Below, piece after piece: positions 8,465-10,215 of a stretch of 22,463 nt of DNA. Every line of letters begins with the position of its first letter. The first letter of the stretch is position 1. The notes beneath the pieces are model-generated. The model was given only the letters and a program-made list of their open reading frames with translations. It was not told where the DNA came from and searched no databases. Both the position numbers and the translations under genes were made by a program. The DNA comes from a virus (taxonomy: Duplodnaviria > Heunggongvirae > Uroviricota > Caudoviricetes), in the IMG/VR virus record IMGVR_UViG_3300022468_000286; one strand, 5' to 3'.

Positions 8465-8493
8465 TTGACGACAGCTAACAACTGATGTACAAT
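8465..8493 (+). promoter_or_regulatory. Promoter for the three tandem ACAGCAA elements and the DUF2828-like gene
   Basis: TTGACG-17-TACAAT; predicted start site near 8500, just before element copy 2. Confidence 0.75.
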
Positions 8494-8504
8494 ACAAACA
8501 ATTA

Positions 8505-8559
8505 AGAATGCAAACAGCAAATTTATTCTTTTTCATAGAAACCAAAATTGCATTCTGTT
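8505..8559 (+). ncRNA. ACAGCAA-stem element, copy 2
   Basis: AGAATGCAA-ACAGCAA ... TTGCATTCT-GTT (9 bp stem); internal TTCT-TTTTCAT-AGAA hairpin. Confidence 0.7.
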
Positions 8560-8567
8560 TTTTATTT

Positions 8568-8631
8568 AGGCTACTTGCAGCAACCATAATACACTGAACT
8601 TTTAATTCAACTCGTAAAAAGGTAGCCTGTT
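8568..8631 (+). ncRNA. ACAGCAA-stem element, copy 3
   Basis: AGGCTACT-T-GCAGCAA ... GGTAGCCT-GTT; internal TGAA-CTTTTAA-TTCA hairpin. Confidence 0.7.
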
Positions 8632-8637
8632 ATTTTT

Positions 8638-8718
8638 AGAATAGTTACAGCAACTCAATAAACTAGGCTGTGAGTTTCGATTTCTCACTTAAATCAAAAA
8701 GTAGAAAACTATTCTGTT
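8638..8718 (+). ncRNA. ACAGCAA-stem element, copy 4
   Basis: AGAATAGT-T-ACAGCAA ... ACTATTCT-GTT; internal GTGAG-TTTCGATTT-CTCAC T-arm-like hairpin. Confidence 0.7.
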
Positions 8719-8748
8719 ATTTTAAACGTCATAGAAAAGGAGAAAGAC

Positions 8749-10215
8749 ATGACAACATCTTTGTTTGATGCAATGCAAAACGGCACTACTACCACTAACG
8801 GTATGACTGCATTCAAGAGTACTAACTCTGCCCTGCTGGACTTCTTCAGCAAGGTAGGAGATTCCCGCGGTCTAGACATGACCGGATATTTTCAAGCCGC
8901 ACTGAAGGAAAACACCGAAGTTGCAGTACGTACCCTGCTATGGTCCCGTGATAGTCGTGGGGGTGCAGGTGAACGTCAAACCTTCCGATCTTTGCTGGCT
9001 TTGCTTGCTAAGGATGTAACTTTTGAAGGTATGCAGGGCGTTATCGCTCTTGTCCCTGAAGTGGGCCGCTGGGATGACTTGCTGGTTCTGCTGGGTACTA
9101 AGTACGATGCAGATGTTAAGCTTGTGATTAAGCAAGCCCTGAACTCAGGTAACGGTCTTTGTGCTAAATGGATGCCTCGCCAAGGCCCAGTAGCTGCCGA
9201 TCTGCGTACTAGCTTCGAAATGTCACCTAAGCAGTGGCGTAAGACTCTGGTTAACCTTACTAATGTTGTTGAAACAGCAATGTGTTCTAGGGAATTTGGC
9301 CGTATTGAGTATTCGCAGGTTCCTTCTAAGGCAATCGGTAAGTACGCTAAGGCTTTCCACCGTCAAGATGGTGTTCGTTTTGCGGACTTTAAGAAGAAGG
9401 TAGAAACTGGCGAAGCCAAGATCAATGCTGGCGGCGTGTTCCCTTATGATGTTGTGCATCTGCTGGGTCGTGATAAACAACTTGCTGAAGTACAATGGAA
9501 GGCCCTGCCTGATTACGTAAACGGTTCTAACGAACGTGCAATCTGCGTGGTAGACGTTTCTGGTAGCATGCACAGCGCAGTTCCCGGCAGTTCTGTGACT
9601 TGTATGAATGTTGCAATTTCTCTTGGTATCTATACCTCTGAGCGTCTTCAAGGTGTATTCAAGAATACCTTCATTACCTTTACTGACAATCCTAAGATTT
9701 TTAAGTTTAAGGAAGGTATGTCTCTTCAGGCCCGAGTGAATGAAGCTCAACGTGATGTTGGCTACAGCACCGATCTGGAAGGTGTCTTTGACGCTGTTCT
9801 GAAGGCTGCAGTGCAGAATAATGTTCCTGAAGATCAAATGCCTACCAAGATTGTAATGATCTCTGATATGCAGTTCAATTCGCAAGTTGGTGGAAACCTT
9901 TCATCTATTCCGATGATCGCTCAGAAGTACCAGCGTGCAGGCTATAAGCTACCAACTCTGGTCTACTGGAATGTTGGAGCAGCTAAGAGTGGAAATTCTC
10001 CATTTACTGCTGGTACTGCCGGTGCAGTAATGGTTAGTGGCTTCAGCCCTGCTATTCTCAAGGGTATTTTGTCGTCAAAGACAGATGCAATTGAAGTAAT
10101 GCTTGACACTGTAGGAGATGTGCGGTATAATTATATTCAAGCTATTCCTAAGCTTGTAGACATTCCAATTCCAAAGCCTAAGCGCAAGTATGTACGTAAG
10201 GTAAAAGAAGCCTAA
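8749..10215 (+). CDS. DUF2828-family / TROVE(Ro60)-like helical domain plus vWA protein (488 aa)
   Basis: TTTNG...KST...LLDFF N-terminus, RDSRGGAGER, GRWDDL, AKWMPR, vWA MIDAS DVSGSM, ISDMQF, YWN, SGFSP; AGGAG RBS. Confidence 0.85.
   Translation: MTTSLFDAMQNGTTTTNGMTAFKSTNSALLDFFSKVGDSRGLDMTGYFQAALKENTEVAVRTLLWSRDSRGGAGERQTFRSLLALLAKDVTFEGMQGVIALVPEVGRWDDLLVLLGTKYDADVKLVIKQALNSGNGLCAKWMPRQGPVAADLRTSFEMSPKQWRKTLVNLTNVVETAMCSREFGRIEYSQVPSKAIGKYAKAFHRQDGVRFADFKKKVETGEAKINAGGVFPYDVVHLLGRDKQLAEVQWKALPDYVNGSNERAICVVDVSGSMHSAVPGSSVTCMNVAISLGIYTSERLQGVFKNTFITFTDNPKIFKFKEGMSLQARVNEAQRDVGYSTDLEGVFDAVLKAAVQNNVPEDQMPTKIVMISDMQFNSQVGGNLSSIPMIAQKYQRAGYKLPTLVYWNVGAAKSGNSPFTAGTAGAVMVSGFSPAILKGILSSKTDAIEVMLDTVGDVRYNYIQAIPKLVDIPIPKPKRKYVRKVKEA

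What the first reader, a model, noticed from the sequence alone, without database searches (positions are those of the whole stretch)
8465..10215. Promoter, three tandem ACAGCAA-stem ncRNAs and a TROVE/Ro60-like vWA gene: a candidate phage ribonucleoprotein system
Seen: a dedicated promoter (8465-8493) is followed by three back-to-back elements (8505-8559, 8568-8631, 8638-8718) and then the 488 aa DUF2828-like gene. Each element has the layout AG-stem / 0-1 nt / (A/G)CAGCAA / variable insert / complementary stem / GTT. The stems differ in sequence but all pair (AGAATGCAA:TTGCATTCT, AGGCTACT:GGTAGCCT, AGAATAGT:ACTATTCT). That covariation around an invariant single-stranded motif points to a structured RNA rather than a DNA repeat. 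Known: Ro60/Rsr TROVE-vWA proteins bind Y RNAs through a terminal stem, and bacterial Y RNAs are encoded next to rsr and can mimic tRNA. Inference: these are Y-RNA analogues whose stem plus ACAGCAA is the protein handle, forming an RNP for tRNA protection, repair or decoying.
Basis: partly seen in the sequence, partly recalled or inferred. Interest (0 to 1): 0.92.

Follow-up and report, generated by a model that had tools for sequence, protein, structure and literature searches.

The report
Phage Ro60-like protein with partner RNAs
A phage gene for a ring-shaped, Ro60-like RNA-binding protein sits behind its own promoter and three small structured RNA genes (a fourth lies in the nearby tRNA array) that share one conserved "handle". 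The same RNA-plus-protein pairing recurs in very different phages and some bacteria, so it looks like an unpublished cousin of the Ro60/Y-RNA particle.

Summary
The window holds four, not three, RNA elements: 8505-8557, 8568-8629, 8638-8716 and 7081-7176. Each has a 7-9 bp closing stem that starts AG and ends CU-G, then UU-(A/G)CAGCAA, then a variable insert. A conserved sigma-70 promoter (8465-8493) precedes the first three. They run straight into the 488-aa DUF2828/DUF7788 gene, whose model has the full Ro60 fold (TM 0.62-0.66) and an intact MIDAS site.

A covariance model built here finds the element beside DUF2828 genes in about 60% of 126 related loci. All 138 hits lie on the gene's strand, mostly within 500 nt of it. 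It finds nothing else in two whole phage genomes. Stems covary in an independent test set.

Inserts carry anticodon-loop-like and T-arm-like hairpins. In bacteria the cassette is followed by RtcB/RlaP or preceded by a PNK-ligase. A preprint reports that the Ro60-like protein gp130 of a Felix O1-type phage (probably the orthologue) counters the Ppl defence.

No Rfam family reaches threshold. The only recurring sub-threshold match is Dictyostelium Class I RNA, which has the same layout.

RNA expression, processing and protein binding are untested. This scan has noted the same pairing on many other genomes; I found no published description.

The parts
8465..8493 (+). Sigma-70-type promoter, TTGACG-17 nt-TACAAT. 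The predicted start is about 4-5 nt before element 1.
   Evidence: Consensus scan scores it 10/12. Both hexamers are conserved at the same distance from the first element in L001, L083, L084 and L085.
8505..8557 (+). RNA element 1 (53 nt). 9-bp closing stem 8505-8513 / 8548-8556, ACAGCAA at 8514-8520, 27-nt insert with a weak 4-bp hairpin and 7-nt loop, 3' G at 8557.
   Evidence: Sequence. Fold has the heptamer unpaired. Model R1 scores 55 bits. Rfam RF01414 scores 24.9 bits, below threshold.
8568..8629 (+). RNA element 2 (62 nt). Stem 8568-8576 / 8620-8628, GCAGCAA at 8577-8583. The insert carries an anticodon-stem-loop-like hairpin: stem 8595-8598 / 8606-8609, loop CUUUUAA at 8599-8605.
   Evidence: R1 scores 67.9 bits. 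In 13 orthologues the inner 4-bp stem covaries and the loop keeps CU-NNN-AA.
8638..8716 (+). RNA element 3 (79 nt). Stem 8638-8646 / 8707-8715, ACAGCAA at 8647-8653. The insert has a T-arm-like hairpin, GUGAG-UUUCGAUUU-CUCAC, at 8670-8688.
   Evidence: R1 scores 63.7 bits. The hairpin is conserved in L001, L084 and L038. Fold of the insert.
7081..7176 (+). RNA element 4 (96 nt), between tRNA-Arg and tRNA-Lys. Stem 7081-7089 / 7167-7175, ACAGCAA at 7090-7096. The insert folds into three hairpins, one T-arm-like (GGG-UUCGACU-CCC, 7129-7141).
   Evidence: Sequence. R1 scores 52.5 bits. Fold. Orthologues occur in L001, L083, L084 and L085.
8736..8742 (+). Ribosome-binding site AAAGGAG, 6 nt before the ATG.
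   Evidence: Read from the sequence.
8749..10215 (+). Gene for a 488-aa DUF2828/DUF7788 protein with a Ro60-type ring fold (helical repeat domain plus vWA domain with MIDAS residues D269, S271, S273, T341, D373).
   Evidence: Pfam. Invariant columns in 52 homologues. AlphaFold model with pLDDT 86.5. Foldseek TM 0.62-0.66 to Ro60 structures 1YVP, 2I91 and 9NFA and to Swiss-Prot Ro60s.

Best explanation
The four elements are genes for small non-coding RNAs of about 50-100 nt. They form the RNA half of a Ro60/Y-RNA-like ribonucleoprotein whose protein half is the adjacent DUF2828 protein.

Proposed mechanism, with each step marked:
1. Shown: the promoter match at 8465-8493 is conserved in relatives. 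Inferred: it transcribes elements 1-3 and the protein gene as one unit. No terminator-like site was called between them. Element 4 would come from the tRNA operon.
2. Inferred: host RNases cut in the A/U-rich spacers (UUAUUUUUAG) and release RNAs that run from AG to CUG(U).
3. Conservation shown, binding inferred: the closing helix together with the single-stranded UU-RCAGCAA box is the docking handle for the ring protein. This parallels Ro60 gripping the conserved stem of Y RNAs.
4. Hairpins shown, their role inferred: the variable insert is an effector module that displays tRNA pieces. Element 2 carries an anticodon-loop look-alike with a Lys-type CUUUUAA loop. Elements 3 and 4 carry T-arm look-alikes.
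5. Inferred: through these modules the particle engages enzymes that act on tRNA or damaged RNA. Candidates are host anticodon nucleases or other defence nucleases, or ligases and exonucleases such as RtcB, Rnl and PNPase. It thereby protects or repairs the phage's translation apparatus and counters host defence.
For: RNA family and structure:
- In the seed alignment 97% of stem cells pair, against 33-48% when the 3' partner is slid, and 6 of 9 pairs change on both sides.
- In an independent set of 28 hits from GTDB contigs 91.5% pair, against 33-46%, and 9 of 9 pairs are compensatory.

Linkage to the gene:
- There are 110 hits in 90 loci and 28 hits in 36 further loci, all 138 on the gene's strand.
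- Of 39 strict elements in 49 full-length loci, 29 lie within 500 nt of the gene ends. None lies inside the gene or on the other strand.
- In the whole genomes of Vibrio phage PhiImVa-1 (77 kb) and Listeria phage P100 (131 kb), the only hits are the three beside the gene.
- The element is also present beside the gene in Campylobacter, Staphylococcus, Klebsiella, Bacillus and Mycobacterium phages and in Blautia and Oscillibacter MAGs.

Protein:
- It has the full-length Ro60 fold and intact MIDAS residues.

tRNA-like modules:
- 25 of 86 inserts have a hairpin with a YU-NNN-RN 7-nt loop, against 3.7 +/- 1.9 in shuffled inserts. T-loop hairpins number 5 against 0.16.
- The anticodon-like arm covaries in 13 orthologues of element 2.

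Functional context:
- The gene lies inside or beside tRNA arrays here and in Felixounavirus, Campylobacter, Bacillus, Klebsiella and Listeria phages.
- An Oscillibacter contig has RNAs, then DUF2828, then RtcB, then RlaP. A Blautia contig has a kinase-phosphatase-Rnl1 fusion upstream. Phage GAP32 has an RNA ligase directly upstream.
- The Ro60-like gp130 of Bas63, which lies directly upstream of that phage's tRNA genes, is needed against the Ppl defence (preprint 10.1101/2024.10.10.617714).

Precedent:
- The canonical Ro60 of Thermus phage phiLo binds two Y-like RNAs encoded just upstream of its gene and engages host PNPase (PMC12135203).
Against: - No expression, end-mapping or binding data could be obtained.
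- Bas63 gp130 expressed alone from a plasmid or from T7 rescued plaquing on Ppl cells. At least that activity does not need the phage's own RNAs, unless host RNAs substitute.
- I did not verify directly that Bas63 gp130 is the DUF2828 orthologue. This is inferred because all 251 Felixounavirus records carry the gene at that position.
- The insert hairpins are thermodynamically weak, no better than shuffles. Their support is comparative only.
- My seed alignment was chosen by requiring a stem, which inflates. Alignment A3 was fitted to the model.
- About 40% of DUF2828 loci show no element within +/-3-4 kb, for example GAP32, PX29, Ci1 and the Ochrobactrum phage.
Confidence: 0.62

Rival explanations
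1. The elements are cis-acting leader or operator structures of the DUF2828 mRNA. The protein, or a host factor, binds the handle to control processing, stability or translation of its own message. No stable trans-acting particle forms.
For: Elements 1-3 lie between the promoter and the ribosome-binding site, with no terminator before the gene. Many relatives also have them in the immediate 5' leader.
Against: - Element 4 lies 1.6 kb upstream, behind several tRNAs and promoters.
- In many phages the copies lie downstream of the gene: 20 of 39 strict elements are within 500 nt after the stop, as in the Staphylococcus, Klebsiella and Mycobacterium phages.
- Others lie between tRNAs.
- Multiple paralogues with different structured inserts are hard to explain as operators.
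Confidence: 0.12
2. The RNAs are real but work independently of the DUF2828 protein. For example, they could be tRNA-operon punctuation or processing signals, or decoys for a host factor. The linkage would then reflect only a shared home in tRNA regions.
For: The RNAs and the gene both sit in or beside tRNA arrays. gp130 works against Ppl without phage RNAs.
Against: - The pairing persists where no tRNA array is adjacent: the Staphylococcus phage, and the Oscillibacter and Blautia cassettes.
- Hits in whole phage genomes are confined to the gene's flank.
- An invariant heptamer kept across phages of Firmicutes, Actinobacteria, Campylobacter and Proteobacteria calls for a co-travelling, conserved reader. 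The DUF2828 protein is the only conserved neighbour.
Confidence: 0.12
3. The repeats act at the DNA level, as recombination or homing sites, iterons or promoter-associated repeats, and the pairing potential is incidental.
For: HNH homing-endonuclease genes are scattered through the region. The copies are tandem.
Against: Both halves of the stem change together while the sequence drifts. The strand bias is absolute, 138 of 138. The motif is asymmetric and keeps register with the stem.
Confidence: 0.03

Closest known systems
Ro60 (Rsr/TROVE) with Y RNAs: Deinococcus Yrn1, Salmonella and mycobacterial YrlA/YrlB (Chen et al. 2014, PMC4201824), Thermus phage phiLo Ro60 with Yrl1/Yrl2 (PMC12135203)
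   Same: - Ring protein built from helical repeats plus a vWA/MIDAS domain.
- Small RNAs encoded right next to the gene on the same strand.
- RNA closed by a 5'/3' terminal stem that carries the conserved protein-binding signature.
- Variable or tRNA-like effector module.
- Neighbourhood of RNA-repair genes (rsr-yrlBA-rtcBA in Salmonella; DUF2828-RtcB-RlaP here).
   Different: - The protein belongs to other Pfam families (DUF2828 + DUF7788). It has no TROVE hit, is about 14% identical to Ro60 and about 50 residues shorter.
- The RNA signature is a single-stranded UU-RCAGCAA box abutting the stem, not the bulged helix or CGAA motif of Y RNAs.
- There is no Rfam YrlA or Y_RNA match in the window.
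- Several paralogous RNAs occur per genome, often in tandem.
Class I RNAs of Dictyostelia (Rfam RF01414; Kjellin et al. 2021, PMC7919456)
   Same: - Start (A)AG.
- Short covarying stem joining the 5' and 3' ends.
- ..UUACAGCAA directly after the 5' half of the stem, predicted unpaired.
- Variable middle, A-rich run before the 3' half, end CUGU.
- 42-65 nt (elements 1 and 2 are 53 and 62 nt), with many paralogues per genome.
- RF01414 is the only Rfam family that repeatedly matches the phage elements.
   Different: - All matches are below Rfam's gathering score: 17.5-29.8 bits against 41.5.
- The phage stems are 7-9 bp with one nucleotide fewer before the box.
- Phage copies are made from sigma-70 promoters or operons rather than DUSE elements.
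- Some phage copies carry long structured inserts.
- Class I RNAs are reported as unique to Dictyostelia, with Rnp1A/CIBP as the known direct binder. Whether dictyostelids encode a DUF2828 protein could not be tested here.
Bas63 (Felix O1-type phage) gp130, anti-Ppl counter-defence protein (PhageMaP preprint 10.1101/2024.10.10.617714)
   Same: A Ro60-like phage protein encoded directly upstream of the tRNA array, as the DUF2828 gene is in Felixounavirus EF202P1. The authors also guessed that some 'tRNA' genes there are Y RNAs.
   Different: That study reports no RNA partner, motif or binding data. Orthology to the window protein (about 37% identity to Felixounavirus homologues) is inferred, not checked on the Bas63 record itself.

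Membership tests
DUF2828/DUF7788 protein family (Pfam PF11443 + PF25043) | Matches to both Pfam models above their curated cut-offs | tested here: met
   PF25043 scores 141.4 bits (cut-off 27.1). PF11443 scores 80.8 bits (cut-off 29).
Ro60 / TROVE family | Sequence match to the TROVE domain or the Ro60 vWA model | tested here: not met
   No TROVE hit at E <= 0.1. vWA_Ro60 scores 19.6 bits, below its 27.7 cut-off. The profile search against PDB gives only E 0.0017 over 42 residues of phiLo Ro60.
Ro60 / TROVE family | Full-length fold: helical-repeat ring plus C-terminal vWA domain | tested here: met
   Foldseek E 2e-10 to 1e-9 and TM 0.62-0.66 over about 550 columns to 1YVP, 2I91 and 9NFA. Swiss-Prot Ro60s of mouse, human, Deinococcus and C. 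elegans are the top five hits.
Ro60 / TROVE family | MIDAS metal site (DxSxS ... T ... D) in the vWA domain | tested here: met
   D269, S271, S273, T341 and D373 are invariant in 52 homologues.
Ro60 / TROVE family | Binds Y RNA on the outer surface and misfolded RNA ends in the central hole | not testable with these tools
   Needs biochemistry or a structure of the complex.
Y RNA / YrlA (Rfam RF00019, RF02553) | Covariance-model match at the gathering score | tested here: not met
   No Y_RNA or YrlA match in window 7600-11700 even at E <= 10. Relatives give only 22-26 bit YrlA matches, all over tRNA genes.
Y RNA / YrlA (Rfam RF00019, RF02553) | Encoded adjacent to, and co-oriented with, the Ro60-type gene | tested here: met
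Y RNA / YrlA (Rfam RF00019, RF02553) | tRNA-like effector domain (YrlA type) | tested here: inconclusive
   Anticodon-loop-like and T-arm-like hairpins are enriched and covary. However, no complete tRNA-like domain was called in the four window elements.
Dictyostelium Class I RNA (Rfam RF01414) | Covariance-model match at the gathering score (41.5 bits) | tested here: not met
   Elements 1 and 3 score 24.9 and 17.5 bits and element 2 is not reported. Relatives score 23-29.8 bits.
Dictyostelium Class I RNA (Rfam RF01414) | (A)AG start, short covarying terminal stem, CUGU end | tested here: met
   Met at the sequence level in all four window copies and in the alignments. True RNA ends are not mapped.
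Dictyostelium Class I RNA (Rfam RF01414) | 11-nt box CCUUACAGCAA next to the 5' half of the stem. Most conserved positions: U3, C6, C9, A10, A11. | tested here: inconclusive
   RCAGCAA is invariant and UU usually precedes it. Positions 3, 6, 9, 10 and 11 are kept in elements 2-4, but position 3 is A in element 1. The first two positions differ and are paired.
Dictyostelium Class I RNA (Rfam RF01414) | DUSE promoter about 60 nt upstream; restricted to Dictyostelia | tested here: not met
   The phage copies use a bacterial-type promoter 11 nt upstream or lie in an operon, and the source is a phage.

The most novel reading that the evidence does not exclude
The phage and bacterial ACAGCAA-handle RNAs and the 'Class I' RNAs of Dictyostelium would be one RNA family, defined by a handle that a DUF2828-type Ro60-like protein reads. 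Class I RNAs would then not be a dictyostelid invention. They would be the eukaryotic branch of a Y-RNA-like system shared, or exchanged, among phages, bacteria and eukaryotes.

Two leads fit this reading:
- The uncharacterised Class I pull-down protein DDB_G0281243 is an obvious candidate reader.
- Plants encode DUF2828 proteins. The best outgroup candidate in Kjellin's Table S4 is an Arabidopsis locus with stem + AUUACAGCAA + CUG and a CM score of 40.
Probability: 0.15. Interest if true: 0.92.

Novelty: new variant of a known kind. Interest (0 to 1): 0.78.

Why it matters
Ro60/Y-RNA particles are a classic but still poorly understood RNA-surveillance system. DUF2828 proteins are far more common in phages than canonical Ro60. 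There are 711 phage records in one collection, including Felix O1-type, Listeria P100-type, Staphylococcus, Campylobacter and mycobacterial phages used in typing or therapy research.

A defined RNA partner family with a 16-18 nt handle makes the system directly testable by EMSA, CLIP and cryo-EM. It also explains unannotated 'spacers' in phage tRNA arrays. It links a reported counter-defence protein (anti-Ppl) to tRNA-like RNAs and RNA-repair enzymes.

If the resemblance to Class I RNAs reflects a shared reader, it would give a first mechanistic lead for an abundant orphan RNA class of social amoebae.

Tried and rejected
- **Rfam.** At gathering thresholds the window gives only tRNAs. Permissive scans give no Y_RNA, YrlA, riboswitch or leader family on the elements.
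- **Terminators.** I considered that each element is an intrinsic terminator because a T-run follows it. The terminator scan calls none. The stems close 27-70 nt loops, and the copies are followed by further copies and by the gene.
- **Thermodynamic support.** z-scores for the elements are only -1.1 to -2.5, and the inserts alone fold no better than shuffles. Structure claims therefore rest on covariation.
- **DNA similarity.** No phage record resembles the window; only short patches match.
- **Does Dictyostelium encode a DUF2828 protein?**
  - Swiss-Prot fold hits list only Ro60s and telomerase p80/TEP1.
  - AFDB cluster hits carry no organism names.
  - DDB_G0281243 appears in one preprint only, without domain information.
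  - Avesson 2011 is not held.
  - The question stays open.
- **Bas63 record.** The search for it among Felixounavirus hits did not list it among the 60 rows shown.
- **Whole-record search.** The first-look filter missed the known copies in the Campylobacter and Staphylococcus phages. Absence in that mode is therefore weak evidence.
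Full report
**What is there**

The window is a piece of an uncultured tailed phage. It carries PhoH, a ClpP-like protease, HNH endonucleases, large terminase and a Mu-type portal. It also holds a large co-oriented tRNA array: 14 genes by ARAGORN and 15 by Rfam. 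No phage record resembles it at the DNA level.

In the middle of the array lies ORF 8749-10215 (488 aa). It matches Pfam DUF7788 (3e-41) and DUF2828 (1e-22), with only a sub-threshold touch of the Ro60 vWA model.

I also confirm three back-to-back elements at 8505-8557, 8568-8629 and 8638-8716. A fourth copy lies at 7081-7176, between tRNA-Arg and tRNA-Lys.

All four elements read the same way:
- (U/A)AG, then a 7-9 bp stem.
- UU-(A/G)CAGCAA, unpaired in the folds.
- An insert of 27-70 nt, then an A-rich run.
- The complementary stem half, ending CU.
- G, then UU and an A/U-rich spacer.

No terminator-like site separates the elements from the gene. An AAAGGAG ribosome-binding site follows at 8736-8742.

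**Is it more than chance?**

A simple scan (a stem of at least 7 bp abutting NCAGCAA) over 90 related loci gave 95 elements, against 15-30 in shuffled sequence, mostly on the gene's strand.

I aligned 33 non-redundant copies (A2). The 9-bp helix pairs in 97% of cells, against 33-48% when the 3' partner is slid by 1-3 columns. Six of nine pairs change on both sides. The AG/CU end pairs and one U-A pair are invariant. Because I had picked those copies by requiring a stem, I treated this as a seed only.

I built covariance model R1 from A2. In the window it scores the four copies at 52-68 bits and nothing else above 11 bits.

The test results were:
- On the 90 loci it finds 110 matches at E <= 0.1, all on the + (gene) strand. 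Many are in loci that contributed nothing to the seed.
- On an independent set of 36 DUF2828 loci from GTDB genome contigs it finds 28 matches in 19 loci, again all on the gene's strand.
- In that set the helix pairs in 91.5% of cells (33-46% slid), with compensatory changes at all nine pairs. The caveat is that the alignment is fitted to the model.
- Among 49 loci with full flanks, 29 of 39 strict elements lie within 500 nt of the gene's start or stop. None lies inside the gene or on the other strand.
- In the complete genomes of Vibrio phage PhiImVa-1 (77 kb) and Listeria phage P100 (131 kb), the only matches are the three copies immediately upstream of the DUF2828 gene.

The promoter hexamers are conserved at the same distance from the first element in four relatives.

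**How far does the pairing reach?**

tblastn finds the protein in 711 phage records. I fetched representatives and found the element beside the gene in these lineages:
- Schitoviridae: Vibrio PhiImVa-1, three copies.
- Fletchervirus: Campylobacter F371, two copies.
- Herelleviridae: Listeria P100, three copies.
- Sextaecvirus: a Staphylococcus phage, three copies downstream.
- A Klebsiella Stephanstirmvirinae phage.
- A Bacillus Tsamsavirus, five copies in and after the tRNA array.
- A mycobacteriophage, three copies downstream, with GGAC...GUCC-AG ends.
- Blautia and Oscillibacter MAG contigs.
- Felixounavirus, where weaker copies sit between tRNAs.

Some carriers showed none within +/-3 kb: GAP32, PX29, Ci1 and the Ochrobactrum phage.

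The heptamer stays ACAGCAA (sometimes GCAGCAA, CCAGCAA or ACAGCAG) across all of these, while the stem sequence is free. That pattern is expected for a protein-read handle.

**The protein**

An AlphaFold model built on 52 homologues (pLDDT 86.5) matches full-length Ro60 structures: Xenopus and human Ro60 with RNA, Deinococcus Rsr and Thermus phage phiLo Ro60. TM is 0.62-0.66 at E about 1e-10. Swiss-Prot Ro60s are the top five hits.

Sequence methods barely see this relationship. The protein is a structural relative, not a member, of the TROVE family.

The MIDAS residues D269, S271, S273, T341 and D373 are invariant. So is a set of basic and aromatic residues in the helical domain, in the motifs RDxRGGxGER, GRWDD and CAKWMPR. 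These are candidates for RNA contacts, which is inference.

**What the inserts look like**

Twenty-five of 86 unique inserts carry a hairpin with a 7-nt loop of the anticodon-loop pattern YU-NNN-RN. Shuffled inserts give 3.7 +/- 1.9 (maximum 10 in 200 shuffles). Five carry a UUCRANN T-loop hairpin, against 0.16 in shuffles.

For element 2 and 12 orthologues, RNAalifold predicts a 4-bp inner stem that covaries, for example UGAA/UUCA, UCAA/UUGA, UACA/UGUA, UUGA/UCAA and UAGA/UCUA. It closes a loop with invariant C-U...A-A around a variable triplet: UUU, CUU, UGU, CGU, GUU or GCU. This is an anticodon-arm look-alike. In the window the loop is CUUUUAA, the same as in the phage's own tRNA-Lys.

Elements 3 and 4 carry T-arm-like hairpins. 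Element 4 folds into a handle plus three hairpins.

These hairpins are thermodynamically weak. Their support is comparative.

**Functional context**

- The gene is embedded in or abuts tRNA arrays in many lineages.
- In an Oscillibacter contig the order is RNAs, DUF2828, RtcB, RlaP. In a Blautia contig a kinase-phosphatase-Rnl1 fusion lies upstream. In phage GAP32 an RNA ligase is the upstream neighbour. This mirrors the Salmonella rsr-yrlBA-rtcBA RNA-repair operon, which I cite from established knowledge (Chen et al. 2014).
- A preprint reports that Bas63 gp130, a Ro60-like protein encoded directly upstream of that Felix O1-type phage's tRNA genes, is required for normal plaques on cells with the Ppl defence. 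It rescues T7 when supplied alone. All 251 Felixounavirus records carry the DUF2828 gene in that position, so gp130 is very probably the orthologue. I did not see the Bas63 record itself.
- The rescue by protein alone means the phage RNAs are not needed for that particular effect.

**Comparison with known systems**

The closest mechanistic analogue is Ro60 with Y RNAs. Its phage version, phiLo Ro60, binds two Y-like RNAs encoded just upstream of its gene and forms complexes with host PNPase. The present system shares that architecture. It differs in using another protein family and another RNA signature.

No Rfam 15 family reaches threshold on the elements. The only family that matches them repeatedly is RF01414, Dictyostelium Class I RNA. 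Scores are 24.9 and 17.5 bits in the window and 23-29.8 bits on eight further elements in other loci, always coinciding with R1 hits. Those E-values already include a factor of 4227 families.

The published definition of Class I RNAs fits the phage elements closely. It specifies an AAG start, a 6-bp covarying terminal stem, the CCUUACAGCAA box right after it, a variable middle and a CUGU end. Length is 42-65 nt, with many paralogues per genome.

Against over-reading this:
- All scores are below Rfam's 41.5-bit threshold.
- Kjellin's own outgroup table shows 25-27-bit chance hits in large eukaryotic genomes.
- The known direct binder of Class I RNA is an RRM protein.
- I could not establish whether dictyostelids have a DUF2828 protein, or what the pull-down protein DDB_G0281243 is.

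I therefore file the resemblance as real at the sequence/structure level. Common descent or a shared reader is a roughly 15% possibility.

**Novelty and standing**

I found no paper or Rfam entry describing the RNA family. Earlier notes of this same scan describe the same pairing on many other genomes. I used them as leads and re-tested what I cite: the PhageMaP preprint, the phiLo paper and the Clostridia RtcB cassette.

Relative to the literature this is a new variant of a known kind. It is a second, much more widespread Ro/Y-like particle with its own protein family and its own RNA handle.

**Shown versus inferred**

- Shown here: the elements, their covariation, their strict linkage and co-orientation with DUF2828 genes, the conserved promoter, the Ro60 fold, the tRNA-piece-like inserts and the RNA-repair neighbours.
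- Inferred: transcription and excision of discrete RNAs, binding of the handle by the protein, and a role in tRNA protection, repair or counter-defence.

Noticed in passing
window 8294-8372 and 8379-8458: Two tRNA-like genes that ARAGORN and Rfam do not call. Both have 7-bp acceptor stems ending in an encoded CCA, anticodon-like loops (CUGUUAA and UUUGCAA) and unusual T-loops (AGCGUCA, AGCGUUA). The first is about 81% identical to an unannotated 86-nt stretch in some 25 Acinetobacter T4-like phages. The second is a diverged copy of a tRNA that Rfam does call in L001 (2524-2596).
   Followed up: partly
window 7434-7504 and 7868-7940: Two tRNA genes found by Rfam (45 and 42 bits) but missed by ARAGORN.
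   Followed up: no
window 10216-10476: A 260-nt ORF-free gap between the DUF2828 stop and tRNA-Pro with two tRNA-sized folds. One (10282-10369) gives a 21.5-bit sub-threshold tRNA match. The other (about 10381-10465) folds into a four-way junction. They may be further aberrant tRNAs or partner RNAs without the ACAGCAA box.
   Followed up: partly
window 10103-10131: A perfect 12/12 sigma-70 consensus promoter (TTGACA-17-TATAAT) lies inside the 3' end of the DUF2828 gene. It is positioned to drive the downstream tRNA genes. Similar strong promoters sit at 6877-6905 and 8081-8109.
   Followed up: no
window 5481-5975, 10639-11322, 12341-13138: Three HNH endonuclease ORFs are scattered through the tRNA region and before the terminase gene. 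These are typical free-standing homing endonucleases.
   Followed up: no
L092 (Listeria phage P100) 1399-1950: A near-full-length match to ROOL RNA (86 bits, gathering score 99.1) lies about 1 kb upstream of the DUF2828 gene and its three partner RNAs, among tRNAs.
   Followed up: no
L126 (Oscillibacter MAG) 3757-7495; L120 (Blautia MAG) 310-5590: Bacterial cassettes. In L126 two ACAGCAG-handle RNAs are followed by DUF2828, RtcB and RlaP. In L120 a kinase-phosphatase-Rnl1 fusion lies upstream of DUF2828, with one handle RNA on each side.
   Followed up: partly
L087 4826-5064: A group I intron (80.8 bits, above threshold) lies just after or inside the large terminase gene of a related phage contig.
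   Followed up: no
Supplemental Table S4 of PMC7919456: The best 'outgroup' Class I candidate is an Arabidopsis locus (CM score 40) with terminal stem GUUUUC/GAAAAC, AUUACAGCAA and a CUG end. A Capsaspora candidate carries CCUUACAGCAA. Plants encode DUF2828 proteins, so these dismissed candidates may deserve a second look.
   Followed up: no
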